Positions 2,260-56,689 of a stretch of 64,000 bases of DNA are shown here, piece by piece; position 1 is the stretch's first letter, and each line of letters starts with the position of its first letter. Origin of the DNA: Clostridia bacterium (GTDB lineage Bacteria > Bacillota > Clostridia > Oscillospirales > CAG-272); NCBI GenBank assembly GCA_017483305.1, contig JAFULC010000061.1, positions 200 to 64,199 on the forward strand, given 5' to 3'. The notes below the pieces were generated by a model. It was not told the DNA's origin and did not search any database. It worked only from the letters and a program-made list of their open reading frames with translations. The position numbers and the translations under genes are program-made.

Positions 2260-2315
2260 CGGGCGTGCGGCACGCCGCACCGCTCAACGTTTATATTTAA
2301 GGAGGTATTTGTGAC

Positions 2316-3665: not shown

Positions 3666-3776
3666 CCAACTTCGCCCAAAATGAATTGCACCGAGGTGCA
3701 TTAAAGTGTTTTTAAAGCCGAAGGGCTTAAAATAGAAAATAAAAAATTATTATATCAAATTTTGGAGGACAAAAAA

Positions 3777-4019
3777 ATGGTAAAAATGAGACTCAGAAGA
3801 ATGGGCGCAAAGAAGGCTCCCTTCTACCGTGTAGTTGTTGCTGACAGCCGTTACCCCAGAGACGGTCGTTTCATCGAGGAGATCGGTTACTACAACCCCG
3901 GCACCAATCCCGCAGAGGTTCAGATCGACGCTGAGAAGGCTAAGGCTTGGCTTGGAAAGGGCGCACAGCCTACCGAAACCGTAAAGTCTCTTCTCAAGAA
4001 GTCCGGTATCGTTGACTGA
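3777..4019 (+). CDS. rpsP: 30S ribosomal protein S16
   Basis: [41 protein letters not shown]. Confidence 0.98.
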
Positions 4020-4069
4020 TTCTTATACAAGAGCAGTACACAGTATCTGATTTAAGATTGGAGAATTTC

Positions 4070-4306
4070 ATGGTAGATCTCAAGGAAACACTGCGTAATA
4101 TCGCAGTCGCTATCGTTGATAACCCCGACGAGGTTGTGGTAGTTTGCAACGAGACCGAGCACAGTATCACTCTTACTTTGAGCGTTGCCCCCGACGATAT
4201 GGGAATGGTCATAGGCAAGGGCGGACGTATCGCAAAGGCGATCCGTATGGTAATAAAGGCCGCTGCCGCAGGCTGCAACAAAAAGGTAACAGTTGATATC
4301 AGATGA
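4070..4306 (+). CDS. khpA: KH-domain RNA-binding protein KhpA (YlqC)
   Basis: DMGMVIGKGGRIAKAIR motif. Follows rpsP. Confidence 0.93.
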   Translation: MVDLKETLRNIAVAIVDNPDEVVVVCNETEHSITLTLSVAPDDMGMVIGKGGRIAKAIRMVIKAAAAGCNKKVTVDIR

Positions 4307-4310
4307 TTAG

Positions 4311-4386
4311 AGAAAAGCACCGAGCAATTCGGTGCTTTTCCTTTATATTCAAAAAAGCGTTGTGCCGCAAAGCACAACGCTTTTTC
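4311..4386. terminator. Two back-to-back intrinsic terminator hairpins between convergent genes
   Basis: GAAAAGCACCGA-GCAAT-TCGGTGCTTTTC and AAAAAGCGTTGTGC-CGCAAA-GCACAACGCTTTTT. Confidence 0.8.
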
Positions 4387-7328: not shown

Positions 7329-7697
7329 TCAATTCGCTTCGGTGAAGCGCTTTTGCTCTCTTTCGATGAACTCGGCGGTCTTCATATCCTGAATCTCGGA
7401 CGCGTCGAGCACGAGCGCGAATTTGCGCTTGATCTTTACCCACTCGCCGCGCTTGATGATGCAGTTCTGACCGTTCACAGCGACGTAGACGTCATCTCTG
7501 TATCGGTCGTTGTCCTTGAAAAGCTTGACCGAAATGTATTCGTTGAGATATCTCTCATATTCCTTCGCCGCTTCCCTTGCGCGCTCGTCCGCGCTCCGCT
7601 TCTCGCCGCGAAGACGGGCGTTCTCCGCCTCCTTTTCGGCGAGCTTGAGCTCGTATTCCTCCTTGAGCGCAGCTATTGCCTCGTTGAATTTTGTCAT
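7329..7697 (-). CDS. Phage-like protein of the type that follows N4-gp56 capsid genes
   Basis: Coiled-coil N-terminus, then KLFKDNDRYRDDVYVAVNGQNCIIKRGEWVKI, a motif I recognise from clostridial phage post-capsid genes. Confidence 0.7.
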   Translation of the reverse strand: MTKFNEAIAALKEEYELKLAEKEAENARLRGEKRSADERAREAAKEYERYLNEYISVKLFKDNDRYRDDVYVAVNGQNCIIKRGEWVKIKRKFALVLDASEIQDMKTAEFIEREQKRFTEAN

Positions 7698-7778
7698 ATC
7701 AATGATCCTTTCTTGCAAAAAATTGTCGGGAGGAGCGAGCCCTCCGAGGAGTGCTCGCCCCAAAATCAGATCCTATGA

Positions 7779-9065
7779 TCAGACCGAAGCCGCGGTCTCG
7801 ATACGGATCATAAACGCCTCGACAAGACGGACGGTGACCTTGGTCGCCTTCCAGCCCACAGTTGCTCTCTGATTGAGAGGGTCGGAGCTGCCCGCACTGC
7901 CAAGCTGCTTGACGATATGCTCGAGTCCGCCGTCCGCAAGAGTGGTGGTGCCGTAAGCGTTCTCGCCAAATACGAGGGTCGCGTAAACGTCAACGCCGTT
8001 AGCACCCGCCTCACCGGGATAGATGATCGCATTTGCCGCGCAGGTCACGGAGGCGGCGGTCGCCTTGGTGCTGTCGGTGCAAAGCGTCATTGCGGAGGAG
8101 GTGTTTGCGGAAACGTAGTACTTCTTGCCCTCGATGAGCACTTCTCTGCCCACGAGCGCGCCATCAGCAACGCTCGCGTCGGTCTTGAAGCTGACCGTAG
8201 CCGAGCCGTTAGCCGCCGCGCTTACGGTGAGCGTTCTTGCGCCCTCGGCAAGATCCTCAGCGTGGAAGATCTTTGCCTCGGTGCTCTCGATGAAGCGAAC
8301 TCCCTCGATGCGACCGATCTCGCCCTCAAAGATAGCCGAGGGGTCGGCATACTGGTGGGGATACTTCCAGTTGGGATCGCTCATAAGGTCGTAGGCGCAG
8401 TCGGGGTGAATGATCGCAACGTAAGCGCCATCGATCTTCTCGGCGTTCTGATTCTTGAGGAATCTGACCGCCTTGCGAACCGCGTCAACGGTGAGGTAGT
8501 GGTTGTCCTCGGCGTTAGCGCTGCCGCCGACAAGCTGGCTACGGGAGCTGACGTCTCCCTCGGCATACTGCACGTTAGTACCGCCGACAAGCACCTCACG
8601 GGAGATGGTGTCGAGGGTTCTGCCTGCCTGAGAGCCGAGAAGCTTGGTCGCCATGCAGAGATTGTTGTCAATGGCGGTCATAAGAAGCAGGTCGGTGAGC
8701 TCAACGTAGCCGCCGTACTGTGCAACGGTCGCGTTGACGATACCCATATTGATGGTCTGTCCCGTGGGGGTGATTCCCTCGGCGATAGGATCCGTCAGCT
8801 TGGGCAGCGGATCGTATTTGCGGAACTGAACCGACTTTCCGTTGCCTGCGGGGATCGCATGCTTCTGCGCGAAGCGATCGTGAACGAGAGCAGGCTCGGC
8901 GTTGTCGATAAGATAGTCCGAATAGTAGGTTTTCATCTCGGGAGAAAGTCCCTCTCCCTCGGCGTATGCGGTGACCTCACCGCTCTTTGCGTTGATCTCG
9001 CCCTCGGTGCCAAGCACCTTGTCGCCTGCTCCGAAAAGCTGAAGATCTGCGTTGAAAATAGTCAT
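7779..9065 (-). CDS. Major capsid protein, N4-gp56 family
   Basis: LSPEMKTYY, AEPALVHDRFAQK, QYGGY, TAIDNNL, IHPDCAYDL, GEIGRIEGVRFIES, DPLNQRATVGWKA. Confidence 0.92.
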   Translation of the reverse strand: MTIFNADLQLFGAGDKVLGTEGEINAKSGEVTAYAEGEGLSPEMKTYYSDYLIDNAEPALVHDRFAQKHAIPAGNGKSVQFRKYDPLPKLTDPIAEGITPTGQTINMGIVNATVAQYGGYVELTDLLLMTAIDNNLCMATKLLGSQAGRTLDTISREVLVGGTNVQYAEGDVSSRSQLVGGSANAEDNHYLTVDAVRKAVRFLKNQNAEKIDGAYVAIIHPDCAYDLMSDPNWKYPHQYADPSAIFEGEIGRIEGVRFIESTEAKIFHAEDLAEGARTLTVSAAANGSATVSFKTDASVADGALVGREVLIEGKKYYVSANTSSAMTLCTDSTKATAASVTCAANAIIYPGEAGANGVDVYATLVFGENAYGTTTLADGGLEHIVKQLGSAGSSDPLNQRATVGWKATKVTVRLVEAFMIRIETAASV

Positions 9066-9110
9066 ATTTTTATTCCTTTCTGTTGTTGAATGTTTAATGA
9101 TCCGATCGGC

Positions 9111-9797
9111 TTAAAGCTTGATCTTCTCTCCCCCTGCCGCGCGCTTGGCAAGCCTTGCACGCTCGGCTCGGGTAAGCTTTGAGACGTCGAAGGGGCTTGC
9201 GGCGGTGCGGTGAGCAAGTCCGTTTTCGTTCGGCCTCGCTCTTTTGCTTCTGATCTCGCCAAGCACTCTTTCCTCGGTCTCTCTCGCCACGTCCTCGGCG
9301 GTCCGTTCGACTATTTCGTCGAAATGTGAGAGCTTATAGGCATCGGCAAGTCCGAACCTGCCGTCCTCGAGCAGAGCCGTCGCAATTTCGATAAATTTTT
9401 CGGAATTTAAGGCAAGCTCCTCGGAAAAACCGCAAAACTCCTTTTTCAGCGCCTCGGAGGACTCACGGATCATTGCCACAAGCTCGTCGCGCGTTAATTT
9501 TTTCGACTTCTCGGCAATCTCTGCGCGTCCCTCCTCCATCGACTGACGAAGCTTCTCCTCCTGCTCCTTGAATTTACGGAAACGGCGGTTTATCATCCTC
9601 TGCGTGTCCTCGGTGTAAAACTCCTTGAACCGCGATCTGATAAGTCTGTCGTATTCGGCGCGCTCGGCGCGTCTTGTCTCCTCGGCGGATAAGATCTCGC
9701 CGTCAGAAAAAAGCCGACTCTCCTCTGCGCTCTCGTCCTCGGGTAACGCCCCGATAGCGTCTTCGTCCACGAAGATATCCGTTTTGTTTTCTTCCAT
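9111..9797 (-). CDS. Putative capsid scaffolding protein
   Basis: Acidic, helical 228-aa protein between Prp and the capsid gene. C-terminus RPNENG...DVSKLTRAERARLAKRAAGGEKIKL resembles such scaffolds. Confidence 0.7.
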   Translation of the reverse strand: MEENKTDIFVDEDAIGALPEDESAEESRLFSDGEILSAEETRRAERAEYDRLIRSRFKEFYTEDTQRMINRRFRKFKEQEEKLRQSMEEGRAEIAEKSKKLTRDELVAMIRESSEALKKEFCGFSEELALNSEKFIEIATALLEDGRFGLADAYKLSHFDEIVERTAEDVARETEERVLGEIRSKRARPNENGLAHRTAASPFDVSKLTRAERARLAKRAAGGEKIKL

Positions 9798-9835
9798 AAG
9801 TAAAAACGTAATCCTTTCCCACCGTTATCGGTGAT

Positions 9836-10171
9836 CTACGCGCGGCAGGGGTTCATTTTCCAGCTCCACGCGTTGTTTTCGACCTCTACGTACCCGGGAT
9901 AAGTGAGTGAGATCTGCCAGATTCCGATGCAGGCAAGCTTCATCGCCTCCTCACCGTCCTGCCCGCAGCTCACGTCAGCACATCCCGAGCTGAGCCGATC
10001 AAGGCTCGTTCCCTCGGAGCAAAAGTTTGAAAGATAGCCGCAGAGCGAATAGAATATGCCCGACACGGCGGCGCAAACGATATCGTTGCCCTCGCCACTA
10101 AAGCCTGCGTGGCCTTCTATTTGCAGTCTGAGGCGACCGTCCTCGCGCCTTGAAAACTCCGCCTTAATCAT
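9836..10171 (-). CDS. Prp-family cysteine protease (phage-related ribosomal-protein L27-processing type, DUF464)
   Basis: Catalytic His/Cys motif IEGHAGF...GNDIVCAAVS. Start overlaps the portal stop codon. Confidence 0.85.
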   Translation of the reverse strand: MIKAEFSRREDGRLRLQIEGHAGFSGEGNDIVCAAVSGIFYSLCGYLSNFCSEGTSLDRLSSGCADVSCGQDGEEAMKLACIGIWQISLTYPGYVEVENNAWSWKMNPCRA

Positions 10172-11720
10172 TGTCCTCTTCCTTTCCGTCTCCGTAGAGC
10201 GAGCGGATCGATGCCTTGAGCATCCCGACTCCCTCGAAATCCATCATTTCGAGCATAAGCAGGGTCTGTGCGGCGTTTTCGGGTCTGAACGCGCCCGAGT
10301 CGTAAAGCTCCTTTGCGAACTTGTTTTTCTTCTCGGACTCGCTCGGCGCCTTCTTGACCGCGCTGATCTCGATGTCGAAGTGAGGTCGGTATCCGTCCTC
10401 GCCAGCCCTGATGCTCTTGCCGCAAAAGCCGAGGTATTCTCTCGCGCCGTCGTCACCGACTATGCGGAAAACTCTCGTCTCGTCGTAAAACTGACGTATC
10501 AGCTCGACCACGAGCGCGATTATTCTGATGTAGGCACGGTAGGTCTCCTCTATGCCGTCGCGCGACGCCTTCGCTCCCGCCTCGCGCAAAATGCTTATTG
10601 CCGAAGCCGCGGTGATGCCGCCGCTGATGCCTCCCTGAGAAACATCGAGCGAGCCCGTGACGGTCTTGAGCTCCTCTATCTTGAGCAGCTTCGCATCCAT
10701 CACAGAGTCGTTCATCGGGGATATCTCGATCTGACGGAGCTTTTCCTCGTCAATGTCTCCCTCTACCTCCACGATGCTTCGATCAAGGTCAAGGAACTCC
10801 TTTTCGTTGACTCCGAGGCTTCGCTTCGCCCAGAAGCGCACACGCGACGCCCAATCCGTGTATTCGAGAATGTTCGCATCGATACGGTTGATGTATCTCT
10901 GCGCCTCTGCCGAGGTAGCGATGACTCCAAAGCCATGCGCCTGTCCCGTCGGGTACATTCTGTCGAAAACTATCGGGTACTGACCGTGCTCATACCAGCC
11001 GCAAGGGCAGCTCGGGTCGCTCTCCGAGCTGTAAAGCACGCATTCACCGATGAATTTGCACAGATGGAGCTGAGAGATGCCGTCGGGAAGATACTTTTTA
11101 TAGTACCAATCGACGACGAGGCACTTGCCGTCCGCCGTACTCATTCCGAGTGACGAGGCAAGAGAGCTATCCTGCTCGCGAAGCTGACCGTAGTCAACTC
11201 CGAAGGCTGCCTCAAGCGCGTCGATATCGCTATGCGAGACGATGAAAAGGTTTTGCGAGTCCTGAATATCCCCGACGCCTATCTCCCAGAAAATGTCCTC
11301 CAGAGCAAGCGCGCGGATATCGATATCGCCAAGTCCGTCCTCAAGCGCATTGTTCCAGAAAACTCCGTAAGCGGCGGTGCCGTGCTTGAGCTTCTCCCAG
11401 CAGTTGTCCGAGTAGGTCTGCTCAAAGCCGCACCTTTGCGTTATCACGGGAATAATCTTGGATAAGGTCTCGGCGTATTTTTCATCGCGCTTCTCTCTCG
11501 GGAGACAAACGCAGGACGGAATACTGTCGATCACGTCGGCGTGCTTATTGACTATACTGTTGAATATCCAGGACGACGATTCGCCGCCGGTATAGACCGC
11601 GCGCCATATATCGCCCTCCGACGCTATTCTGCTCTCAAGCTCTGCCTTTTCCCTTTTGTAGCGGATAAGCGTTTTGATGGCAAGAGAGAGGTCGGGGGCT
11701 GCCGTTTTATTTTCGTTCAT
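10164..11720 (-). CDS. Phage portal protein
   Basis: WIFNSIVNKHAD, LPREKRD, KLKHGTAAYGVFW, VVDWYYK, GWYEHGQYP, SGGITAASAI, ELIRQFYD. Sits directly after TerL. Confidence 0.85.
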   Translation of the reverse strand: MNENKTAAPDLSLAIKTLIRYKREKAELESRIASEGDIWRAVYTGGESSSWIFNSIVNKHADVIDSIPSCVCLPREKRDEKYAETLSKIIPVITQRCGFEQTYSDNCWEKLKHGTAAYGVFWNNALEDGLGDIDIRALALEDIFWEIGVGDIQDSQNLFIVSHSDIDALEAAFGVDYGQLREQDSSLASSLGMSTADGKCLVVDWYYKKYLPDGISQLHLCKFIGECVLYSSESDPSCPCGWYEHGQYPIVFDRMYPTGQAHGFGVIATSAEAQRYINRIDANILEYTDWASRVRFWAKRSLGVNEKEFLDLDRSIVEVEGDIDEEKLRQIEISPMNDSVMDAKLLKIEELKTVTGSLDVSQGGISGGITAASAISILREAGAKASRDGIEETYRAYIRIIALVVELIRQFYDETRVFRIVGDDGAREYLGFCGKSIRAGEDGYRPHFDIEISAVKKAPSESEKKNKFAKELYDSGAFRPENAAQTLLMLEMMDFEGVGMLKASIRSLYGDGKEEDND

Positions 11721-11739
11721 TGGGTATGTGTCCTTTCTT

Positions 11740-13218
11740 TTATTTAAATCTTGCCCTTACCGTATAGCTGTCGGAGGCTTGACGGTAAAGGTCGAGCGGG
11801 TCTGCCGAGATAATCAGGCTCTGCCCCGTCTTTTTTAATGCAGGCACGGGGCATTCCATACATACGTAGCGAAGCTCGTCGTATATGTGATCCTCGCCCG
11901 AGGTGTCCACGTCCTCCACGTCGGAGGAATCGTAAACAAGACAAGGAAAGGTCCTGATAAACTGCCGACAGGTCGAGAAAACGTAAAGCCTCGGCTTGCC
12001 GTTCTCGTCAAAGGCAAGACGGTTGTGGACCTGCTGCTTGCCCGCGATCCGCGAGTTGTCGGCGCGGTCCCAATATATTCCCTGCTTTTCCATAATGCCG
12101 CCGATGCTCTCGCCGCCGTTTTTCTGATAGATCGCGGGGTCGGCGACTCCGTGGATAGTCCTGCCCGAGAGGTTTTCGTCCTCGCGCTCGATGCGCTTGA
12201 TCTCGGTCGCGACCTTCTCCGCCTCCCAGCGCACGCCCTCGTTCGGCGTGCCCGTGCAGCCGTAAAGCTCGCGGATGCGGTAAAGCACGCCATCGGTGTC
12301 CTCGGCATACCAGCCTACCGAAAAGGGCCGCGAATATCCCCAGTCGAAGCCGCGGTAGATCCGCCAATGCTTCGGTATTCTGAAGGGCGAGATCACGTGA
12401 GTCGCCGTGCGGTCAAGGTATCGGTCGGGATCGTTCTTCCACTCGGTAAAGACCTGTCCCGAAAAGCCGTTCCAATCGCCGTAAAGCAGTGCCGCACGCT
12501 CGGCTTCGGGGAGCGACGCCAGACGCGTAAGGTAGTCGGGATCGTTCCTTAGCAATATTTCGTTATCAAAGACCGTGGACGGCACAAAGATCCTTGATTT
12601 CCGTCTTTCCTCCTCGTGACCGTCGGGAAATCGGATCTTCACCGTCTCCCAGATCGTAGTCATAGGCGGCGCGGGGGTGATAAATCTTTCCTTGACCCAT
12701 CCGTGACCGATGCCGCCGGGATTCGCCTGCGCTCTCATATAGCACCTCGTGCCCGGGCCGCTCGGTCGGTTTCGCGAGAAAAGATAGCTGTATTCGTCGA
12801 ACGTGAACTGCGTCAGCTCGTCGAAATCGATAAAATCGTAGCGCTTTCCCTGATAATTGTATCGGTCAGAGGCGTGGGCAAGCGAGCCGAAGTATATCTT
12901 CGCACCCGACGGAAAGCGCCAGAAATGTCTTGATTCTTTGTAGACCGCCGCGGGACAAAAGTCCGAATATATCGAATAGGATCGGTCTATAAGCTCGGAG
13001 AGCTGTGGATAGGTCTTGCGGAGTATCAGACCGCGATAATGCGGTATATTGATCTGCCGCAACGCCTCGGCAAGCGCGCAATCCGACTTTCCGCCGCCCG
13101 CCGCGCCGCCGTAAAGAGCCTCGTCCTCAAGTCTTCGCATAAACGCCGCCTGTCTCGGTTGAGGTCTCCAGACTACCCTTTTTTCTCGGGCGTTGCCGCC
13201 CTTTACGTTACCTGACAT
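11740..13218 (-). CDS. Terminase large subunit
   Basis: Q-motif PQPRQ, Walker A YGGAAGGGKS, Walker B FDELTQF, NPGGIGHGWVKERF, nuclease motifs GFDWGYSRPF and EDHIYDELRY. Confidence 0.95.
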   Translation of the reverse strand: MSGNVKGGNAREKRVVWRPQPRQAAFMRRLEDEALYGGAAGGGKSDCALAEALRQINIPHYRGLILRKTYPQLSELIDRSYSIYSDFCPAAVYKESRHFWRFPSGAKIYFGSLAHASDRYNYQGKRYDFIDFDELTQFTFDEYSYLFSRNRPSGPGTRCYMRAQANPGGIGHGWVKERFITPAPPMTTIWETVKIRFPDGHEEERRKSRIFVPSTVFDNEILLRNDPDYLTRLASLPEAERAALLYGDWNGFSGQVFTEWKNDPDRYLDRTATHVISPFRIPKHWRIYRGFDWGYSRPFSVGWYAEDTDGVLYRIRELYGCTGTPNEGVRWEAEKVATEIKRIEREDENLSGRTIHGVADPAIYQKNGGESIGGIMEKQGIYWDRADNSRIAGKQQVHNRLAFDENGKPRLYVFSTCRQFIRTFPCLVYDSSDVEDVDTSGEDHIYDELRYVCMECPVPALKKTGQSLIISADPLDLYRQASDSYTVRARFK

Positions 13219-13232
13219 CGACTCTGCCCTCC

Positions 13233-13724
13233 TCAGCCTTCCTCGTCGATCGTGTCCGCCTCGGGTATCTCGACGACTCCGCCGCCCTCACCCTCGGCAT
13301 CCCTTTCGGGTCGCTCGCTCCATCGCTCGGGCTGACGGTTCTTGAGCCAGAAGATCTCGGCTCGCAGGTCGGCGGGCACGTGGGCGGTGTCAACTCCCGT
13401 CGCAAGCTCCTCGTACTCGCGTATCTTTTTGCCCGTCTGGGGGTCAAACTCGACTCTTTTGAGCTTGTACGTCTTGTCCACCGCCACGTTGTAGCCCGTA
13501 GCCTTCTTATAAAGCGCCCTGACTATATCGTAGTCGGCGTTTTCCTTACCAAGACCGAGCGCCTCGGCAAAATCGGGATACTTGCGCTTCCAGAGTCGGA
13601 ACGTGGGCATCTCAATGCCGCACCCGATCGCGATCTCCTCGTCCGACAAGCCCTCGTCGGCAAGTCGGCGGACTCGCTCAAGTCCGCAGGACTCGAGCCA
13701 GCGCTCGTATTTAGTTCTCGCCAT
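13233..13724 (-). CDS. Terminase small subunit-like HTH protein
   Basis: GLSDEEIA...TFRLWKRKYPDFAEAL, ALYKKATGY, IFWLKNRQPERW. Immediately upstream of TerL. Confidence 0.85.
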   Translation of the reverse strand: MARTKYERWLESCGLERVRRLADEGLSDEEIAIGCGIEMPTFRLWKRKYPDFAEALGLGKENADYDIVRALYKKATGYNVAVDKTYKLKRVEFDPQTGKKIREYEELATGVDTAHVPADLRAEIFWLKNRQPERWSERPERDAEGEGGGVVEIPEADTIDEEG

Positions 13725-14088
13725 CTGTGCTGTGCGCCTTCGCGCTTACTTCGTCATTCGCTTCAGCGGCTTCGCTGTTAGCGAATTTCACAGACACCTC
13801 GTCGTTCGCTTTTGCGTAACCGCCGCATCGCTCAACGGTTATAACGTAATCGTCGCCCACCGTACCGACTATCGCGCGGTAGCTTCCGATGGCATCGCGT
13901 ATCAGCTCCTTGGGCACGCGGACACCGTCGTGCTTTTCGACGAGAAGCGCAAGGTATGCCGAGAGGATGTCGTTGGTCTCTTTATAGCCCCTGCTTCGCT
14001 CTCGCTCGAGCTTTATTTGCTTGTTTTTCAGGGCGATGATGCCTCTGTATATTCTGCTTGTCAGTTTCACTCGCGTACTTCCTTTCAT
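13711..14088 (-). CDS. Hypothetical protein in the capsid operon (true start may be an internal GTG near 14070)
   Basis: 125-aa ORF whose stop overlaps the TerS start. Confidence 0.55.
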   Translation of the reverse strand: MKGSTRVKLTSRIYRGIIALKNKQIKLERERSRGYKETNDILSAYLALLVEKHDGVRVPKELIRDAIGSYRAIVGTVGDDYVITVERCGGYAKANDEVSVKFANSEAAEANDEVSAKAHSTDGEN

Positions 14089-14549: not shown

Positions 14550-14578
14550 ATTATAGCACATTTGTTCTATTTTGTCAA
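14550..14578 (-). promoter_or_regulatory. Sigma-A promoter of the capsid operon, with an SOS-box-like site in the spacer
   Basis: Minus strand TTGACA-aaatagaacaaatgtgc-TATAAT (17-bp spacer, extended TG). GAAC-AAAT-GTGC is one mismatch from GAAC-N4-GTTC. Confidence 0.75.
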
Positions 14579-14834: not shown

Positions 14835-14899
14835 ATTACAGTAAGCTTAACTAATCACGAAACGTCCTTCGACGTTTGGGAGTTCTAACGAGGTTCCGT

Positions 14900-15520
14900 A
14901 TGACAGATTTTAAAAATCGCCTGGCAGCCGCCATGGCCGAAAAAAATATGAGAGCCGCCGAGCTCTCAAGACGAACGGGGATTTCAAAGCCCCGCTTAAG
15001 TCAATATCTCAGCGGCGTTTACGTTCCGAAGGCAGACGCTATCTGCGCGATGGCTCAGGCTCTGAACGTAAGCGAGACCTACCTCCTCGGCAGCTCCGAC
15101 ACTCCCTCGGTCGCAGAGATAAAGAACGTTAATTTCAAATTTCTTCCCGTCATCGGCGAGATCGCTTGCGGAGCGCCCATTTTCGCCAACGAGGAGGACG
15201 GAGATATGGTCGTTACCGATGCGGAGACCGATGCGGATTTCTGTCTCATCGCCAAGGGCGACAGCATGAAGGACGCACGAATCTGCAACGGAGACACCGT
15301 GTTTATCAAGAAATCCGACACGGTCAACAACGGCGAGATCGCCGCGGTCATCATCAACGACGAGGCTACTCTCAAGCGCGTTTACTACTACCCCGAAAGC
15401 GAAAAGCTTATGCTCATTCCCGAAAACAGCAGCTACGAGCCGCTCGTGTTCGTGGGTCGAGACCTTGAAAAGATACACATCATCGGCAGAGCCGTCGCGT
15501 TTAAATCTGATATAAGATAA
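14900..15520 (+). CDS. CI/LexA-like repressor: XRE HTH plus S24 autopeptidase
   Basis: AAELSRRTGISKPRLSQYLSG HTH, cleavage loop GEIACGAP, catalytic GDSM and TLKR. Divergent from the capsid operon. Confidence 0.92.
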   Translation: MTDFKNRLAAAMAEKNMRAAELSRRTGISKPRLSQYLSGVYVPKADAICAMAQALNVSETYLLGSSDTPSVAEIKNVNFKFLPVIGEIACGAPIFANEEDGDMVVTDAETDADFCLIAKGDSMKDARICNGDTVFIKKSDTVNNGEIAAVIINDEATLKRVYYYPESEKLMLIPENSSYEPLVFVGRDLEKIHIIGRAVAFKSDIR

Positions 15521-51543: not shown

Positions 51544-54210
51544 TCAGCCGAGATTGATCTCAACGTTCATAACGATCGCGAGGTTCTCAAGCTTTTCTGC
51601 AAGCTCCTCACCGCCGCCGTTTTCAGCGTAGTAGGTCTCGAGCGCGCTTGCTACGGTCTGCGCCTCCTCCTCGTTGGAGTAGTTGATTCCGTAGGGGTTG
51701 CCGCCCTGCTCCTCGCTCTCAACGGTCTGTGCAACGGTCTGCATAACGACGTCAGAGCTGATGATCGTGTCGATGAACTCCTCAGGGGTGGTGTCGACCG
51801 TACCCTGCGAGGTCTCGGTATTGAAGATCGCGCCCGACTCCGCGCCTGTCATCGCAAGCGTGAGCACCTGGCTGACCGCATCCGCCTCGGCGGAAACCGC
51901 CTCGTCGGTGGGTGCGCTCTCCTTGAACTGTGCCATATTATTGATAAGGCTGCTGAGCGAATCTGCGATCTTATCGGAGTTTTCAATACCCGAGGTATTG
52001 AAGCTGCCAACCACGTTGCCTGTGATGATATTTGTGAGCATCTCGGCGTTTTCGGTGTTGACGTTCTGGATCATAGTCTCAACTGCCTGGATCTTCTCTT
52101 CCTTGGTCGCATCGGTCTTGGTGTTGACCTTTACCGCCTCAACAGTGCTTCCAACCGCACCGGTGGCGTTTGTAAATCCGCCATCCTTGCCGCCTGCGTG
52201 AGAGTTGATGGTGTTCGCGATCTCGGTCAGGTCTGCACGGGAAAGTCCAAGACCGTCAACCAGTGCATCCGACTGCATGATAGCGGTCAGGAGCTTCTGC
52301 GCTACCTCGGGACCGAAGACCTCGGAGCCCTGCATCTCATCGAGAATGCCGCCGAGCTTTTCAAATATCGCGGTTGTGTCGTTCATGTCGATGCCGCCCT
52401 CGGATACCATCGAAAGGAATTCACCAAAGATCTCGCCAAGCTTCTCCGCCTCTGCCGCAATGTCGGTGGAATCACTGTAATTGCCGAGCAGATTAAGTAT
52501 ATCCTCAAAGGTGACAAGCGAGGACTTCATGCTTGCCGCGGAATAAAGCGTGCCTGCGTCGTCGAAGCTGACTCCTGTCTTGCCTGCAAGGAAAGCATAG
52601 GATTTGCTGTAATTTTCCGCAGTATATTTGTTAAGAGTTACGCCGTTTACACTGATCGTGCCGTCGCCGTTATCGACAACGCCGCCTGCAGTGCTCGAGT
52701 CGGAAAGATCAACAAGTCCGTCCTTAACGGCTGCCGAGGAATCGGTTGCGCTTGCCGCCGCGTAAAGAATGAAGAATTCCTTAACGTCATCTGCGGTAAT
52801 ATCACTTTCACCGTCGAAGTCAACGATCAGGCCCTCCGCCACAGACTGAAGCGCCTCTCCGCCGACCTCTACGCCGTAGTTACCGAACGCAGTCTGGAGT
52901 CTGCCCGATACCGAGCCGTACTTATCTGCCTCGGAGAAGGATGCGGTCTCGTTGAGAATAGTTGCGATCTCGCCCATAAGCGCGTTGTATCTCTCGTCGT
53001 TACCCTCGGGGATTCCGAGTGTAGTTGCAAGGGTTCTAAGACCGAGACGTGTGATCTCATCCGCAAGGGGATGCATACGCTCGTTCTCGCCGACTACCGC
53101 CAAAAGCTCGCCGATGATCGCGCCGTCGCTGAGCTTGTCGAGAATGTCACCGCTCTCCTCGCCCTCAGTCGAGAGCACGCCGTGCTTTACAAGCACCTGG
53201 AACATATCAACCACCGTGCGAAGATCGGGAACGACCGTGTCCTTATCGGTGGTCGCAAGAATACCGAGCGCACTGTCTATAAGCGGCTGATAAAGCTCGC
53301 CTGCCTCTATCTTTTCCATTCCGAGGAATGCCTCGCCGTCAAGCCAGCTCTGCGAAGCCTCGGAGAGCACGCCCGCAAGCACGCCGCGGAGCATCGCCGA
53401 GCCCTCAAGCTCGTCGAGAGCCGAGTTGATCTCGGCAGCCTTCTCCTCGTCTATCGAGCCGAGGTCTGTGCCGACGTTACCGAGCTTATCGATAAGAGCA
53501 ACGACGATCTGAACGTCCTCTCTCAAATACACCTTTTCGCCGTAGTAGTCTGCGCTTGCAAGTGCATCGTAAAGGAAGCCGTAGCCGAGGTAATCAAAGC
53601 CCTCGTAAGCCTCCTTGACAGAGGGGACCTCCTCGGCAGGTGCCTCGGGGTCGGTCTCCTCCGCGAGCAGACCCGTGGAGTCGATCACATCTGCCGCAAC
53701 GCCGATCGTACCGATAAACGGAACGAAAAGGAAGAGCGAAACGAGCAGACCGCATACAAGTCCGACACCTGCGCCGCCAAGACGGTTTGCAACTGCGGAA
53801 AGCTTATTGAACAAGGGAATGAACTTGGAAACGATCGACATAACGATGCCGAGAATGAGCGAAAGCAAAGCATAGATCGCAGTGAATACGAAGGGCTTTG
53901 CTACCATCGTTACGTAGAACAAAATAGCCTCGCCAACGCTTCCGGGCTCTACGCCAACGGTGATTCCAAGCTCGGCTTGTGTAAGTAATTCGTTTATTTT
54001 CTCCGTAGCCATAGTCATGACGGGAGACGTGGGGCTGCACAGTATGGTCGTTACTATCGCGGCGACAATAGCCGAGATGACGATAGCGACGAGTGCCGCC
54101 AGGCGCTTCTTAAGTCCGCCGAATACACCCATAATAATATTTACTGCGACAACTACCGCAATAATTATCATCAGGACTGCCGGCACGATCATAGTGAAGA
54201 TCTGAAGCAT
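51544..54210 (-). CDS. Large membrane-anchored acidic protein with a CvpA-like N-terminal TM domain
   Basis: About four TM segments including NRLGGAGVGLVCG, followed by roughly 700 aa of acidic helical sequence. Confidence 0.8.
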   Translation of the reverse strand: MLQIFTMIVPAVLMIIIAVVVAVNIIMGVFGGLKKRLAALVAIVISAIVAAIVTTILCSPTSPVMTMATEKINELLTQAELGITVGVEPGSVGEAILFYVTMVAKPFVFTAIYALLSLILGIVMSIVSKFIPLFNKLSAVANRLGGAGVGLVCGLLVSLFLFVPFIGTIGVAADVIDSTGLLAEETDPEAPAEEVPSVKEAYEGFDYLGYGFLYDALASADYYGEKVYLREDVQIVVALIDKLGNVGTDLGSIDEEKAAEINSALDELEGSAMLRGVLAGVLSEASQSWLDGEAFLGMEKIEAGELYQPLIDSALGILATTDKDTVVPDLRTVVDMFQVLVKHGVLSTEGEESGDILDKLSDGAIIGELLAVVGENERMHPLADEITRLGLRTLATTLGIPEGNDERYNALMGEIATILNETASFSEADKYGSVSGRLQTAFGNYGVEVGGEALQSVAEGLIVDFDGESDITADDVKEFFILYAAASATDSSAAVKDGLVDLSDSSTAGGVVDNGDGTISVNGVTLNKYTAENYSKSYAFLAGKTGVSFDDAGTLYSAASMKSSLVTFEDILNLLGNYSDSTDIAAEAEKLGEIFGEFLSMVSEGGIDMNDTTAIFEKLGGILDEMQGSEVFGPEVAQKLLTAIMQSDALVDGLGLSRADLTEIANTINSHAGGKDGGFTNATGAVGSTVEAVKVNTKTDATKEEKIQAVETMIQNVNTENAEMLTNIITGNVVGSFNTSGIENSDKIADSLSSLINNMAQFKESAPTDEAVSAEADAVSQVLTLAMTGAESGAIFNTETSQGTVDTTPEEFIDTIISSDVVMQTVAQTVESEEQGGNPYGINYSNEEEAQTVASALETYYAENGGGEELAEKLENLAIVMNVEINLG

Positions 54211-54315
54211 AATGATTTACCAACCTTCCAAAAGTATTGTGAATGTATAACATTACATTATAATTATACCTCTGAAAGAAGATAATGTCAAGTCTTTTGC
54301 ACAATTTCGCCTAAA

Positions 54316-54645
54316 TTACGCTCTGTTTCTGATATAATGCTTCGCGTAGATCATAAAAGCCGCCTCCGCCTCTGCGCTGAGAGTGGTATATTCCTCGTAA
54401 TTCCCTGCCGTGAACGCTATCATCGCGGCGAGATAGAGCGAATAGAGTCTCGAATACGCGTCGGGCACGGTCAAGGTCGCCTTTTCGCTCTCGGGGAGCT
54501 TGATGCTCTCGGGCGACTGCTTGTGTATCTCGCAAAGCACCCTGCCCTCAACGTCACAAAGCCAACGGATCTTGACCTCCTCGCAGAGCTCGTTGGGCTT
54601 CATCGCGTCAACTGTCGCCAGCATATTTTCTACTGTCATTTTCAT
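54316..54645 (-). CDS. Orphan phage head-completion/adaptor-like protein
   Basis: MTVENMLATVDAMKPN...KIRWLCDVEGRV...LTVPDAYSRLYSLYLAAMI...Y pattern, which I recognise from genes normally downstream of N4-gp56 capsids. Strong AGGAGG RBS. Confidence 0.65.
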   Translation of the reverse strand: MKMTVENMLATVDAMKPNELCEEVKIRWLCDVEGRVLCEIHKQSPESIKLPESEKATLTVPDAYSRLYSLYLAAMIAFTAGNYEEYTTLSAEAEAAFMIYAKHYIRNRA

Positions 54646-54669
54646 TCCTCCTTTCTTTTTTTGTTTGTG

Positions 54670-54830
54670 GGGGAGCTTTTGAAAAAGCTCCCGAATCCCT
54701 CAAGGCTTGCCACTCTGATGGGAATACGGTGTTTTTCAAGCTTCACCATTTTAGAATCCAAACCGTCTGTCCTTTCTCTATCCCGGGGGAAGTTTTGAGG
54801 GTTCCAAGGGAAGTTTTTCAAAAGTTTGGC
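54670..54830. repeat. Intergenic palindromic MITE/REP-like element
   Basis: GGGAGCTTTTGAAAAAGCTCCC hairpin at the left and GAAGTTTTGAGGGTTCCAAGGGAAGTTTTTCAAAAGTT at the right. Confidence 0.5.
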
Positions 54831-54952
54831 GCGCCTCCCTCGCCTCCCCCACGCATCTATTGTACCATAAAAAAGGAAATAAAAAGAGCCCCCCGAGGCA
54901 AAAATTCGGAGGGCTTTAAAGTCCTTATATTAAAAGGGAAACTTGGGGGTTA

Positions 54953-56194
54953 TCAAATGGTGGTGAAAACAGGGAGACCGTCCTTGTACTCGGGGTAGCA
55001 CTCGCCCTTGACGAGAGGGAGGATATAGGCAAGGCAATCGTCGGTGACGTGGTTACCGCGCTCATTGATAAAGTGCTTGGGCACGAATTTGGTCTTGTTT
55101 GCGATCAGGTCGATGTCCATGTGACCGTAGACCGACGAATAGGGCTCACCCGGCTCGTTGTCGCGGAGAATGACCATCATCTCGCGGCTTACTCCCTGCA
55201 CCGCCGCGCTGACTGCGGCAGAGCCTACGCCGAACGACTCCTCGATATCGCACTTGGAGGCGATATGAGCCGCGCATCTCTGGGGGAGGTTAAGCTCGAT
55301 CGAGCGCACCTTGCAGCCGAGTCGGTCCTTGATAGCGAGCTCGAGCGCCTTGCCCGTGCCCGAAAGATATTTATGACCGAACGCGTCGACCGCGCCGCTC
55401 TGTGTTGACTCACCGACAAAGGTGCCGTCCGCCAGACGAAGTCCCTCGGATACCGCAACTACGATATTAGGCTTTTTCTCAAGCGCGGCGGAGAGATCCT
55501 CGAAAAACTCCTCCATATCGAAGATTCTTTCGGGAAGGTAAACGAGATCGGGCGAGGGCATACCGAGAATTCGTCCAAGCTCACTCGAGGCGGTGAGCCA
55601 GCCCGCGTCACGTCCCATGATCTCAACCACCGTGACCGCCTTGACGGTGTATACGGCGGTGTCGCGCATAATTTCCTGCATCGTGACCGAAATATACTTT
55701 GCCGCAGAGCCGAAGCCGGGGGTGTGGTCGGTTCCGAGCAGGTCGTTGTCGATGGTCTTGGGCACGCCGATGACTCTGACATCGTAGCCGCACTCGGTGG
55801 TGTACTTCGAGAGCTTTGCTACGGTGTCCATCGAATCGTTGCCGCCTATATAGAAGAAATATCTGATGTCGTACTTTTTGAATATCTCAATAATGCGCTC
55901 GAAGGTCGCCTTGTAGTCCTTGTCCTCTTCCTTGGGAAGCTTTTTGCGGCAAGAGCCGAGAGCCGCCGCAGGCGTGCGCTTCAATCGCTCGAAGTCTGCT
56001 CTTTCGGTGAAGAGCTCGTTGAGGAGAACTACTCTGTCGGCAAGCAGACCGTCGATTCCGTTTCTCATTCCGTAGACCTTATCGATACAATCCGCATTCA
56101 TCGCGCCGCTGATAACTCCCGCGAGCGTGGCGTTGATTGCCGTCGTCGGTCCGCCCGACTGACCTACTATCGCATTTCCGTGTAAAATTTCCAT
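54953..56194 (-). CDS. pfkA: 6-phosphofructokinase (long, PPi/ATP-type PfkA family)
   Basis: GQSGGPT..IN, IGGNDSMDT, PKTIDNDL, EIMGRDAGWL, DAFGH, QRCAAH. Confidence 0.9.
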   Translation of the reverse strand: MEILHGNAIVGQSGGPTTAINATLAGVISGAMNADCIDKVYGMRNGIDGLLADRVVLLNELFTERADFERLKRTPAAALGSCRKKLPKEEDKDYKATFERIIEIFKKYDIRYFFYIGGNDSMDTVAKLSKYTTECGYDVRVIGVPKTIDNDLLGTDHTPGFGSAAKYISVTMQEIMRDTAVYTVKAVTVVEIMGRDAGWLTASSELGRILGMPSPDLVYLPERIFDMEEFFEDLSAALEKKPNIVVAVSEGLRLADGTFVGESTQSGAVDAFGHKYLSGTGKALELAIKDRLGCKVRSIELNLPQRCAAHIASKCDIEESFGVGSAAVSAAVQGVSREMMVILRDNEPGEPYSSVYGHMDIDLIANKTKFVPKHFINERGNHVTDDCLAYILPLVKGECYPEYKDGLPVFTTI

Positions 56195-56212
56195 AATTTG
56201 AACTCCTATATC

Positions 56213-56689
56213 TTAAGTTTTGTTTTTATTATCTCTCAAAATTCTGTTGAGCATCGCGTTTATCGGTCTTGATATCGCAGTCACGGCGATTATGCCGAGC
56301 GCAAGTCCCGATGCCACGAGCAACGCCTCCTTGCCGTGCTTCGCGAACATCTCCATATCCGAGCTGACCGCTCCAAGCATCGTATAATAAAGCTTTCCTC
56401 CCGGAACGAGAATAATAATTCCCGGGATTATCATAACCGTAACCGGCGTTTTGATCACGCGCGCCATAACGTACGAATACAGCGTGGTGACGCTCGATCC
56501 GAGGATCGATGCGACGAACAGACCGCCGCCAAGCGCCATAGCCGTGTCATAGGTCACACAGCACAAAAACGACGCGAGCATTACCCATCCGATCGACCTT
56601 TTCTCAACGCCAAAGGTAAAAGCAACTCCAAGCGTACCGATCATCGCCGCGGTCATCATCAGAATTCCGTTTAAAATCTGTTCGTTCAT
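56213..56689 (-). CDS. Threonine/serine exporter family, small subunit (ThrE_2)
   Basis: KTPVTVMIIPGIIILVPGGKLY and a hydrophobic profile. Confidence 0.85.
   Translation of the reverse strand: MNEQILNGILMMTAAMIGTLGVAFTFGVEKRSIGWVMLASFLCCVTYDTAMALGGGLFVASILGSSVTTLYSYVMARVIKTPVTVMIIPGIIILVPGGKLYYTMLGAVSSDMEMFAKHGKEALLVASGLALGIIAVTAISRPINAMLNRILRDNKNKT

What the first reader, a model, noticed from the sequence alone, without database searches (positions are those of the whole stretch)
54316..54645. Orphan phage adaptor-like gene far from the capsid operon: evidence for a dispersed particle system
Seen: an intact 109-aa ORF with a strong RBS and an upstream extended -10 (TGgTACAAT near 54859-54867, minus strand), alone between pfk and a membrane protein gene with no other phage genes. 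Recognised from memory, not from a search: the pattern VDxxKPN...KxxWLxxxEG...LxVPxxYxxLYxxYLxAxI matches the head-completion/adaptor gene that normally follows the post-capsid gene in N4-gp56-type clostridial phages, which is exactly where the operon at 7329 stops. Inference: the next gene of the ancestral module was relocated and kept, as in multi-locus GTAs. Remaining tail or stabilisation genes may be scattered elsewhere.
Basis: partly seen in the sequence, partly recalled or inferred. Interest (0 to 1): 0.78.

Follow-up and report, generated by a model that had tools for sequence, protein, structure and literature searches.

The report
Orphan adaptor gene of domesticated capsid
This small gene encodes the ring protein that normally joins a short-tailed phage head to its tail; the bacterium's whole genus has kept it at a site far from its domesticated phage-head operon, and this lineage kept it even after deleting the tail-nozzle gene that used to sit beside it.

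Summary
The ORF is real, but it most likely starts at the second ATG (54639), giving 107 aa. It belongs to a large phage family (phrog_12105) that has no Pfam model. Its confident model (pLDDT 94) matches podovirus head-to-tail adaptors: the 25 best structural hits are all phage neck or tail entries, including P22 gp4 and Sf6 gp7.

In phages and in related chromosomal modules the gene sits directly after the capsid gene and a small post-capsid gene, and directly before a tail-nozzle gene. In this genus the head operon is fixed between ftsZ and ffh. It runs TerS-TerL-portal-Prp-scaffold-N4-gp56 capsid. The adaptor lies at a second fixed site next to pfk.

Basal species carry pfk-adaptor-nozzle there. 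The clade holding this genome lost the nozzle once and kept the adaptor intact (dN/dS about 0.1).

In two basal species the second locus carries the head operon's promoter-operator almost letter for letter.

The closest known system is FpGTA, the two-locus podovirus-like gene transfer agent of Faecalibacterium (2026), whose adaptor was found in purified particles.

No other tail genes were found in this genome. Binding to the portal could not be tested. Earlier follow-ups in this scan reported similar scattered systems on other DNA.

The parts
54316..54639 (-). Adaptor-like gene (P0001), 107 aa from the second ATG; the frame also allows a start at 54645 (109 aa)
   Evidence: ORF; start by comparison with 19 orthologues; phrog_12105 E 5.5e-19; four-helix model, pLDDT 94.4; adaptor fold matches
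54647..54651 (-). Ribosome-binding site GGAGG, 7 nt before the second ATG
   Evidence: Sequence; GGAG-type sites at the same spacing in 18 of 19 orthologues
54859..54867 (-). Extended -10 promoter element TGGTACAAT, directly after the pfk terminator hairpin
   Evidence: Sequence only; no transcript data
54652..54858 (-). 5' leader of about 205 nt with a conserved 15-bp long-range stem and a hairpin just before the RBS (this clade only)
   Evidence: RNAalifold on 6 close relatives: 36 pairs, 3 with compensatory change; function unknown
54211..54315 (-). 105-bp spacer where basal species of the genus carry a tail-nozzle gene of 518-550 aa; it now holds a TTGACA-17-TATAAT promoter for the membrane-protein gene
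   Evidence: pfk-adaptor-nozzle-mem888 in 11 of 11 basal loci, against adaptor-mem888 gaps of roughly 80-190 bp in the 17 crown-clade loci that show both genes; sequence
7329..14088 (-). Head and packaging operon: orf125, TerS 13233-13724, TerL 11740-13218, portal 10164-11720, Prp 9836-10171, scaffold-like 9111-9797, N4-gp56 capsid 7779-9065, phrog_15239 gene 7329-7763
   Evidence: Pfam and PHROG hits; TIGR04387 at 293.9 bits; same order in 18 loci of the genus
14550..14578 (-). Head-operon promoter TTGACA-17-TATAAT with the box AGAACAAATGTGCT (14555-14568) in its spacer
   Evidence: Sequence; a promoter-like match to the same pattern in 18 of 18 upstream regions of the genus, with few changes in the spacer; 26 of 27 nt identical upstream of the adaptor-nozzle locus in two basal species
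14876..15520 (+). Divergent HTH_3 + Peptidase_S24 repressor gene next to the head operon (not the canonical LexA)
   Evidence: Pfam; 84 bits against the LexA cut-off of 111; canonical LexA at G000:C20:13300-13887; adjacent to the module in 17 of 18 loci of the genus

Best explanation
P0001 is the head-to-tail adaptor of a host-owned, phage-derived particle system of the FpGTA type. In a podovirus this small helical protein forms a ring on the outer end of the portal once DNA has been packaged. SHOWN: the protein has the adaptor fold. Its family sits between the capsid genes and the nozzle gene in phages and in related chromosomal modules. The genus keeps a head and packaging operon at one fixed site and the adaptor at a second fixed site about 47 kb away. 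Basal species have adaptor plus nozzle at that second site. The nozzle was lost once in the clade that holds this genome. The adaptor stayed intact under purifying selection afterwards. INFERRED: when the S24-type repressor is lifted, probably after DNA damage, the head operon makes DNA-filled capsids. P0001 is transcribed from its own extended -10 promoter and binds the portal as the head-completion ring. The ring would cap or stabilise the portal vertex, or offer a docking surface, without a nozzle of its own.
For: Fold: the model has pLDDT 94.4. In the fold search against about 48,000 PDB chains, ranks 1-25 are all phage tail, neck or portal-adaptor entries. They include KHP30 (Z 13.1, rmsd 2.3, 107 aligned), SU10 (11.1), P22 gp4 (9.4), the PhiM1 adaptor (8.5), Sf6 gp7 (8.2) and KP32 tail tubular protein A (6.0).

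Gene order: in phage MT835662.1 the order is TerL-portal-Prp-phrog_13908-capsid-phrog_15239-phrog_12105-phrog_511. A phrog_511 gene directly follows the homologue in 5 of 5 further contigs scanned. Of 66 related loci with at least 2.5 kb of flank, 22 have adaptor plus nozzle, 12 nozzle only, 25 neither and 7 adaptor only.

Conservation: orthologues were found in 32 of 36 other genomes of the genus, and all 19 fetched are intact. pfk lies within the flank in 15 of 19 and mem888 in 17 of 19. The capsid gene was found in 35 of 36. The two loci are 47-49 kb apart on one contig in G000, G027 and G034.

Second locus: adaptor-nozzle-mem888 in 11 of 11 basal loci, with pfk alongside in 9 of them. The nozzle-less adaptors form one clade (18 rows, support 89/95), which needs one change of state.

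Selection: dN/dS is 0.06-0.19 in nozzle-less pairs and 0.03-0.24 in pairs that have the nozzle.

Shared control: in G026 and G013, 26 of 27 nt of the head promoter-operator lie upstream of the adaptor-nozzle locus.

Precedent: FpGTA operon I encodes TerL, portal, Prp, an N4-gp56 capsid protein, an adaptor (PDB homologue 7sp4) and a nozzle. The adaptor was detected in purified particles with 2 peptides (PMC12946183: section 9; passages of supplement file 1).
Against: In this genome the P0001 promoter lacks the head-operon operator. The only other copy of that box in G000 is on contig C50, so co-regulation here is not shown.

No nozzle, fibre or other tail gene was found in G000. From general knowledge, in P22 the adaptor alone does not retain DNA, so a ring with no partner is functionally odd.

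No Pfam model matches, including adaptor models. Foldseek against the PDB gave no hit at E <= 0.001. The tool warns that Z below about 13 can be a generic arrangement for helical bundles.

The adaptor tree does not place this genus's orphans with those of sister genera. A single clade is neither shown nor rejected (AU p = 0.22).

Sequence homology to the FpGTA adaptor was not tested. No particles, packaged DNA or expression data exist for this organism.
Confidence: 0.6

Rival explanations
1. Tail piracy. The host-fixed head operon plus P0001 make adaptor-capped, DNA-filled heads. These heads are completed with the nozzle and fibres of a resident or infecting podophage of the same lineage. This would be a chromosomal, non-mobile counterpart of capsid-forming PICIs.
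For: The nozzle is lost while the adaptor, which is the docking surface for a nozzle, is kept under selection. Prophage-like contigs with their own adaptor and nozzle occur in the same genus: G027:C19, G032:C100, G014:C6, G031:C35, G209:C27. Capsid-forming PICIs that use helper tails are in print (seen only as a search listing and abstracts).
Against: The adaptors of those prophage-like contigs are only 25-29% identical to P0001, so nozzle compatibility is doubtful. G000 itself has no such prophage. In podoviruses the tail is built on the head piece by piece (general knowledge), so no ready-made tail exists to capture. There is no direct evidence.
Confidence: 0.13
2. Exaptation. After the nozzle was lost, the adaptor-fold protein took on a host function unrelated to capsids, for example with the neighbouring 888-aa membrane protein.
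For: P0001 has its own promoter and a lineage-specific structured leader without the head operator. It is always next to mem888. Selection is unchanged after the nozzle was lost.
Against: mem888 has its own TTGACA-17-TATAAT promoter, and it also follows the nozzle in basal species, so the pairing may be plain synteny. Every genome that has the orphan adaptor and was complete enough also keeps the head operon. No other function is known for this fold: the top 25 fold hits are all phage neck or tail entries.
Confidence: 0.15
3. Decoy defence. A free adaptor made by the host binds the portals of invading related podophages and blocks attachment of their tails.
For: The gene is expressed apart from the head operon. 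The protein evolves fast: 29-83% identity within the genus against 65-99% for the capsid protein. Related phages infect the genus.
Against: dN/dS is about 0.1, which is purifying selection and shows no sign of an arms race in pairwise measures. No defence genes were seen nearby in the Pfam scan. This idea is pure inference.
Confidence: 0.05
4. Functionless relic of a decayed prophage.
For: It stands alone, with no partner genes at the locus.
Against: It is intact in 30 of 30 loci read in the genus (19, 11). It has a strong RBS and dN/dS of 0.03-0.24, and it persists through at least 18 diverged species after the nozzle was lost.
Confidence: 0.04

Closest known systems
FpGTA of Faecalibacterium prausnitzii, adaptor RCH50847.1 in operon I (Nat Commun 2026;17:2046, PMC12946183; section 9 and passages of supplement file 1 read)
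   Same: It is a chromosomal, podovirus-derived particle system split over two loci. By accession order, operon I encodes TerL, portal, Prp, an N4-gp56-family capsid protein, an adaptor and a nozzle. Its adaptor was matched to Sf6 gp7 (7sp4), the same entry that appears among my Foldseek rows, and it was detected in purified particles. The window's capsid protein is in the same NCBIfam family, TIGR04387.
   Different: In FpGTA the adaptor and nozzle lie inside operon I, and the second locus holds fibres, baseplate and lysis genes. Here the adaptor itself is the second locus, the nozzle is deleted, and no fibre or lysis locus was found. The host family differs. Sequence homology between P0001 and RCH50847.1 was not tested because I had no access to that sequence. 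No particles are known for this organism.
Podovirus head-to-tail adaptors: P22 gp4 (4v4k), Sf6 gp7 (7sfs, 7sp4), SU10 adaptor (7z47), T7 gp11-type tail tubular protein A (5mu4)
   Same: The helical-bundle core aligns over 99-107 of 107 residues with Z 6.0-11.1 for these entries. The gene position between the capsid genes and the nozzle is the same.
   Different: P0001 is only the 107-aa core. The solved adaptors are 145-243 residues long, with extra domains or tails. Sequence identity is 5-14%, and no Pfam adaptor model matches.
RcGTA and other multi-locus gene transfer agents of Alphaproteobacteria (recalled; listings only)
   Same: They are host-fixed, vertically inherited phage-derived particle genes, with some structural genes encoded away from the main cluster.
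   Different: Those are siphovirus-like with HK97-type heads and full tails. Here the module is podovirus-type, and this lineage has no detectable tail beyond the adaptor.
Capsid-forming PICIs (search listing and abstracts only)
   Same: They encode a head, packaging and connector genes without tail genes.
   Different: cf-PICIs are mobile islands with integration and replication genes. This module is fixed between ftsZ and ffh across the genus, with host genes on both sides.

Membership tests
PHROG phrog_12105 (phage protein family, function unannotated) | Match to the family HMM over its full length | tested here: met
   E 5.5e-19, residues 3-107 against profile positions 1-112 of 123. The phage homologue in MT835662.1 scores E 3.9e-52.
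Podovirus head-to-tail adaptor class (P22 gp4 / Sf6 gp7 / T7 gp11 / SU10 adaptor) | Helical-bundle adaptor core fold | tested here: met
   Ranks 1-25 in the fold search of 48,161 PDB chains are phage neck, tail or adaptor entries with Z 13.1-6.0. Caveat: Foldseek gave no hit at E <= 0.001, and helical bundles score high generically.
Podovirus head-to-tail adaptor class (P22 gp4 / Sf6 gp7 / T7 gp11 / SU10 adaptor) | Gene lies between the capsid genes and the tail-nozzle gene | tested here: met
   Met for the family: one phage record, five contigs, 22 of 66 related loci and 11 of 11 basal loci of the genus where it directly precedes the nozzle. In this genome it is next to neither.
Podovirus head-to-tail adaptor class (P22 gp4 / Sf6 gp7 / T7 gp11 / SU10 adaptor) | Binds the portal clip as a 12-subunit ring | not tested
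   The portal (A2) plus adaptor (A1) job was never accepted by complex prediction because its queue was full.
Podovirus head-to-tail adaptor class (P22 gp4 / Sf6 gp7 / T7 gp11 / SU10 adaptor) | Present in particles | not testable with these tools
   Only the FpGTA counterpart has proteomic support (supplement file 1 of PMC12946183).
Pfam adaptor sequence families (for example PF24175 SU10_adaptor) | Score at or above the family threshold | tested here: not met
   P0001 has no Pfam family at E <= 0.1. None of the 31 alignment members matched an adaptor family at E <= 1. PF24175 appears only as a 25% share of the nearest named ESM-Atlas cluster, score 0.95.
FpGTA-like gene transfer agent | Operon with TerS, TerL, portal, Prp, scaffold and an N4-gp56 capsid protein | tested here: met
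   Gene order compared with the accession order in the FpGTA supplement.
FpGTA-like gene transfer agent | Fixed in the chromosome, inherited vertically, no integrase or replication genes | tested here: met
   Same flanks (ftsZ, radC, S24 repressor, ffh) in loci of the genus. The capsid gene is in 35 of 36 genomes. The flanking ORFs are host genes by Pfam.
FpGTA-like gene transfer agent | Structural genes at more than one locus | tested here: met
   The adaptor, with the nozzle in basal species, lies next to pfk, 47-49 kb from the head operon.
FpGTA-like gene transfer agent | Tail hub, fibre and lysis genes (nozzle; operon II) | tested here: not met
   G000 has no nozzle by two lineage HMMs at E <= 10, by phrog_511 (though that family's control search hit nothing in any of the 14 control genomes) or by tblastn. 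Fibre and lysis genes were not searched for systematically. The genome is 97% complete in 63 contigs.
FpGTA-like gene transfer agent | Particles that package random host DNA of a fixed short length | not testable with these tools
   The organism is uncultured, and no virus-like-particle data were examined.
Capsid-forming PICI (phage satellite) | Mobile island with integrase and replication genes and variable insertion sites | tested here: not met
   Synteny is conserved across the genus and both flanks are host genes.

The most novel reading that the evidence does not exclude
In this clade a host-fixed capsid system deliberately stops at the adaptor. It would make DNA-filled heads capped by P0001 that become infectious only by taking the nozzle and fibres of a co-resident or invading podophage. 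That would be a vertically inherited, non-mobile form of tail piracy, serving both as gene transfer and as interference with the phage.
Probability: 0.13. Interest if true: 0.75.

Novelty: new variant of a known kind. Interest (0 to 1): 0.55.

Why it matters
Podovirus-like gene transfer agents in gut Clostridia were described only in 2026, in one genus. This case shows that such systems are split in more ways than that example. It gives a natural series: adaptor and nozzle in the operon, both moved to a second site, then the nozzle lost and the adaptor alone kept. It also singles out one small protein whose continued selection without its usual partner needs explaining.

It offers a practical annotation rule. 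A 'tail-less' head island may have its tail-attachment gene elsewhere. That bears on an earlier finding in this scan of a similar island 'without any linked tail-attachment genes'.

Finally, phrog_12105 is a very large family (3815 cluster representatives) with no Pfam model, and it can now be read as an adaptor domain.

Tried and rejected
There is therefore no result on portal binding.

Expression: one search for sequencing runs and one laying of four runs on 53800-56300. The RNA-library contigs covered only parts of pfk and the first 43 bases of the stretch, inside mem888. A DNA-type run covered the whole stretch. These were contigs, not reads, so this says nothing about whether P0001 is transcribed.

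A profile of the family against PDB sequences gave only two chance-level rows at E 1.1. Foldseek against the PDB gave nothing at E <= 0.001.

I asked whether the 556-aa gene after the head operon (5530-7200) is a diverged nozzle. There was no similarity to phage or module nozzles by BLASTP and no PHROG hit. It is present next to the module in species with and without the nozzle, and absent from that position in others. I rejected the idea.

I asked whether the short C-terminus of the chromosomal adaptors, compared with one phage group, marks the loss of the nozzle. It does not: basal species that have the nozzle, and the module-linked adaptor of genus g99, are equally short.

I tried to reach Faecalibacterium with the search for related loci on the capsid alignment. 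The 80 loci kept of 378 relatives are all uncultured animal-gut Clostridia or Oscillospiraceae MAGs with 59-99% identity. Direct homology to FpGTA proteins therefore remains untested.

A hit of prophage ORFs to G000 contig C5 turned out to be the host ssb gene between rpsF and rpsR.

Rfam at gathering thresholds finds only four tRNAs in the window, and nothing in the P0001 leader.

Literature searches: 'gene transfer agent' + Oscillospiraceae; capsid-forming + PICI + tails; FpGTA, 1 paper; 'gene transfer agent', 'head-to-tail adaptor', podovirus, at least 2 of 3 terms. None of the listings describes an unlinked adaptor or a nozzle-less variant. Only PMC12946183 was read beyond its listing.

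Full report
OBSERVATION

The frame at 54316..54645 on the minus strand is open for 109 codons. GGAGG lies at 54647-54651 and TGGTACAAT at 54859-54867.

In the 19 orthologous loci, the start chosen nearest the match to P0001 gives a protein of 106-112 residues beginning MT or MK at the position of the second ATG. Eighteen of the 19 have a GGAG-type ribosome-binding site there. In this genome the second ATG lies 7 nt after GGAGG and the first only 1 nt after it. The likely product is therefore 107 aa (54316-54639).

The neighbours are pfk (54953-56194) and an 888-aa membrane protein (51544-54210). None of the 37 ORFs scanned across the window outside the head operon (619-5463 and 13711-63994) hit a phage Pfam family. 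The gene is single-copy in the 2.01-Mb, 63-contig genome.

THE HEAD OPERON

It encodes:
- a small ORF of unknown function (orf125);
- TerS;
- TerL;
- a P22-type portal;
- a Prp protease;
- a phrog_13908 scaffold-like protein;
- a capsid protein;
- a phrog_15239 gene that ends at 7329.

[quoted passage not shown] The flanks are host genes. On one side lie ffh, an Mbeg1-like hydrolase and a 556-aa unknown. On the other lie an HTH_3 + Peptidase_S24 repressor, radC, ftsZ and the dcw cluster.

WHAT THE PROTEIN IS

No Pfam family matches. PHROG phrog_12105, annotated 'unknown function', matches at E 5.5e-19.

An AlphaFold2 model built from a 31-sequence alignment has mean pLDDT 94.4 and four helices. 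Foldseek against the PDB gave nothing at E <= 0.001. Several of its weak rows are Sf6 gp7 and the SU10 tail.

The exhaustive structural search of 48,161 PDB chains is much clearer. Ranks 1 to 25 are all phage tail, neck or portal-adaptor entries:

| Entry | Z |
|---|---|
| KHP30 (rmsd 2.3 Å, 107 of 107 residues aligned) | 13.1 |
| Pa223 | 12.6 |
| GP4 | 11.9 |
| SU10 | 11.1 |
| P22 gp4 bound to portal | 9.4 |
| PhiM1 portal-adaptor | 8.5 |
| Sf6 gp7 | 8.2 |
| Pam1 portal-adaptor | 7.3 |
| KP32 tail tubular protein A | 6.0 |

The tool warns that helical bundles can reach such Z values generically. What persuades me is that the top of the list is exclusive to phage necks, together with the gene-order evidence below.

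Against predicted viral structures, five hits at E <= 0.001 place the fold at the N-terminus of viral proteins of 116-726 aa, some named tail fibre.

A profile search of 1.84 billion cluster representatives found 3815 relatives at E <= 0.001. Very often the domain is the first ~108 residues of proteins of 200-1000 aa. Seven of 18 long ones scanned carry collagen repeats. That fits an adaptor to which fibres are fused.

WHERE THE FAMILY NORMALLY SITS

In the gut phage record MT835662.1 the order is: TerL, portal, Prp, phrog_13908, capsid, phrog_15239, phrog_12105, phrog_511, a tail protein, holin, endolysin. The first seven match the window's operon gene for gene. The eighth, phrog_511, I call the nozzle. 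I use that name because the FpGTA paper's supplement labels the equivalent protein so. PHROGs itself labels the family 'internal virion protein'.

In three prophage-like contigs of the same order the homologue lies a few hundred bases after the capsid gene. In five of five further contigs scanned it is directly followed by a phrog_511 protein.

DISTRIBUTION IN THE GENUS

- P0001 has orthologues in 32 of the 36 other genomes sampled from the genus. The four without a match are 75-89% complete.
- In the 19 loci fetched, pfk lies within the 1.5-kb flank in 15 and the membrane protein in 17.
- The capsid gene is in 35 of 36, at 65-99% identity.
- In 18 head loci of the genus the gene order is the same. 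The S24 repressor is adjacent in 17, and ftsZ or ffh is on the flanks wherever they were reached.
- In G000, G027 and G034 both loci lie on one contig, 47-49 kb apart.
- Pairwise dN/dS of P0001 is 0.06-0.19 wherever dS could be estimated.

This is a vertically inherited gene under purifying selection, not debris.

THE KEY RESULT

A nozzle alignment searched over all 39 genomes of the genus hit 17 of them, but not G000. Five hits are in prophage-like contigs. The others lie right beside the adaptor orthologue.

In 11 of 11 loci fetched from the deeper-branching species the order is adaptor, an open nozzle frame of 518-550 aa, then the membrane protein. pfk is on the other side in 9 of them. In the clade that holds this genome the adaptor is followed by the membrane-protein gene after only about 80-190 bp. 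In the window that gap is 105 bp (54211-54315).

On an adaptor tree of 29 rows from the genus plus 7 outgroups, the 18 nozzle-less rows form one clade with support 89/95. Nozzle presence needs a single change. dN/dS in the species that have the nozzle is 0.03-0.24, which is no different from the nozzle-less species.

G000 has no nozzle homologue by any of these tests:
- two lineage-specific HMMs built from 10 and 44 sequences, none even at E <= 10;
- phrog_511 (that family's control search hit nothing in any of the 14 control genomes, so this test is weak);
- phrog_25468;
- tblastn with all ORFs of three phage records and nine prophage-like loci.

The genome is 97% complete, so absence is likely but not certain.

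WIDER FAMILY

The capsid alignment recovered 378 relatives in species-representative genomes. The 80 kept (59-99% identity) are all uncultured animal-gut Clostridia or Oscillospiraceae MAGs. Sixty-six have at least 2.5 kb after the capsid gene. They fall into four classes.

| What follows the capsid and post-capsid genes | Loci |
|---|---|
| Adaptor then nozzle | 22 |
| Nozzle only | 12 |
| Neither (this genus's type) | 25 |
| Adaptor only | 7 |

In G134 (another genus) the module runs from the S24 repressor through TerS to the capsid, post-capsid gene, adaptor, nozzle and a small XhlA-like gene, followed by host genes.

In G152 the adaptor is missing from between the post-capsid gene and the nozzle, and lies on another contig among host genes. 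In G159 and G064 two tandem adaptor paralogues lie next to a ZIP transporter gene.

So the adaptor has left the operon in more than one lineage. The adaptor tree puts this genus's orphans in one clade (88/87) and those of G152, G159 and G064 in another (98/95). A single clade of all chromosomal ones is neither shown nor rejected (AU p = 0.22).

Across 151 genomes of the family, 30 of the 32 with the capsid gene also have an adaptor, against 10 of 119 without it. Most of these are linked copies in one element and the genomes are related, so this co-occurrence is weak evidence.

REGULATION

The head operon's promoter region reads GGGGGTTGACAAAATAGAACAAATGTGCTATAAT. A promoter-like match to the same pattern is present in 18 of 18 upstream regions of the genus examined, and most keep the spacer almost unchanged. 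The spacer holds AGAACAAATGTGCT, which resembles a Gram-positive SOS box (my recollection of that consensus).

The adjacent repressor is not the canonical LexA. It scores 84 bits against a cut-off of 111, and the true LexA is on contig C20. Which protein binds the box is untested.

In two basal species, G026 and G013, 26 of 27 nt of this promoter-operator stand upstream of the adaptor-nozzle locus. This is the best evidence that the second locus belongs to the same regulon.

In G000 the P0001 promoter has no such box. It has an extended -10 element and a ~205-nt leader with a conserved long-range stem. Co-regulation in this genome is therefore open. RNA-library contigs gave no information on P0001.

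COMPARISON WITH WHAT IS KNOWN

The closest system is FpGTA of Faecalibacterium prausnitzii (PMC12946183). I read section 9, text passages and passages of supplement file 1.
- Operon I has ten ORFs over 10.5 kb. Operon II lies about 125 kb away and carries baseplate, fibre, receptor-binding and lysis genes.
- The particles are about 40 nm across, show no visible tails and hold ~8.5 kb of host DNA.
- The proteomics table lists, in accession order: TerL, portal, Prp, N4-gp56 capsid protein, 'Adaptor (PDB=7sp4)' with 2 peptides, and 'Tail nozzle (PDB=8eap)'.

This is the same architecture as the adaptor-plus-nozzle class here. The window's system differs in three ways. The adaptor itself is the unlinked part. 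The nozzle is gone. No fibre or lysis locus was found, although I did not search for those systematically. I could not test sequence homology to the FpGTA proteins.

Earlier follow-ups in this scan reported similar scattered or tail-less FpGTA-like islands in other gut Clostridia. One of them, e1-2132801, noted the lack of linked tail-attachment genes. The present result suggests looking for an unlinked adaptor there.

MECHANISM AND ODDS

That P0001 is a phage-derived adaptor homologue I hold at about 0.9. That it still works with the head operon's portal in this nozzle-less lineage I hold at about 0.6. This rests on the retention of both loci in the same genomes, unchanged selection after the nozzle was lost, the shared operator in basal relatives and the FpGTA precedent.

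Three points weigh against it:
- P0001 has a separate promoter here.
- It has no structural partner.
- From general knowledge, in P22 an adaptor alone does not hold DNA in the head.

The rivals are tail piracy (0.13), exaptation to a host role (0.15), decoy defence (0.05) and a relic (0.04). The portal-binding prediction could not be run because the tool's queue stayed full.

VERDICT

This is a new variant of a recently described kind. It is of moderate interest, mainly for the natural series from adaptor plus nozzle in the operon, to both moved, to adaptor alone, and for the unexplained retention of a lone adaptor.

Noticed in passing
window 14550-14578 (-); G000:C50:25690 (-): The head-operon promoter keeps its 17-bp spacer, with the box AGAACAAATGTGCT, nearly unchanged across the genus. 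The only other copy of the box in this genome (1 mismatch) lies on contig C50, in front of a hairpin and facing the 3' end of an ABC transporter gene, with no ORF behind it. It may drive a small RNA or be a chance match. A related sequence also lies just after the -10 element of the canonical lexA gene on C20.
   Followed up: partly
window 13233-13724 (-) and 13711-14088 (-): TerS matches its PHROG profile only over positions 133-278 of 319, so the N-terminal part, where phage TerS proteins usually bind DNA, is missing. This matches what the FpGTA paper reports for its TerS. A separate 125-aa ORF with no family overlaps the TerS start and is conserved in the closer species.
   Followed up: no
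window 7779-9065 (-) and 9836-10171 (-): In most species of the genus and its sister genera the capsid protein starts with an L27-like motif (LQLFGAG), and the operon carries its own Prp protease gene. An earlier finding in this scan described the same pairing elsewhere.
   Followed up: no
window 5530-7200 (-); L037:11032-16080: A 556-aa protein with an N-terminal membrane helix and no family follows the head operon in many species of the genus, both with and without the nozzle, but not in all. In two close relatives a 1682-aa repeat protein (phrog_35892 / phrog_18805 repeats) is inserted between it and the operon.
   Followed up: partly
L033 and L034 (G036:C22 and G036:C8): One species of the genus carries two full copies of the head module, each with its own S24 repressor gene.
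   Followed up: no
L065 (G159:C145) and L066 (G064:C187): In a sister genus the orphan adaptor is duplicated in tandem next to a ZIP transporter gene. One copy is fused to a C-terminal domain of about 100 aa of unknown fold.
   Followed up: no
window 54652-54858 (-): The P0001 leader in this clade folds into a 15-bp long-range stem (CCCTCAAAACTTCCC with GGGAAGTTTTGAGGG) plus a hairpin right before the RBS. In other species of the genus the leader instead holds a terminator-like hairpin followed by a run of T. No Rfam family matches.
   Followed up: partly
window 54230-54290 (-): A textbook TTGACA-17-TATAAT promoter for the 888-aa membrane-protein gene sits in the 105-bp spacer left where the nozzle gene used to be.
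   Followed up: no
protein family of P0001: phrog_12105 relatives number 3815 cluster representatives and have no Pfam model. Many are the N-terminal domain of long proteins with collagen repeats, that is, adaptors fused to fibres.
   Followed up: partly
L053:8390-8677, L054:10982-11323, L055:7534-7854: In sister genera the module ends with a small XhlA-like ('hemolysin', phrog_937) membrane-protein gene, a possible lysis function. I did not look for a counterpart in this genome.
   Followed up: no
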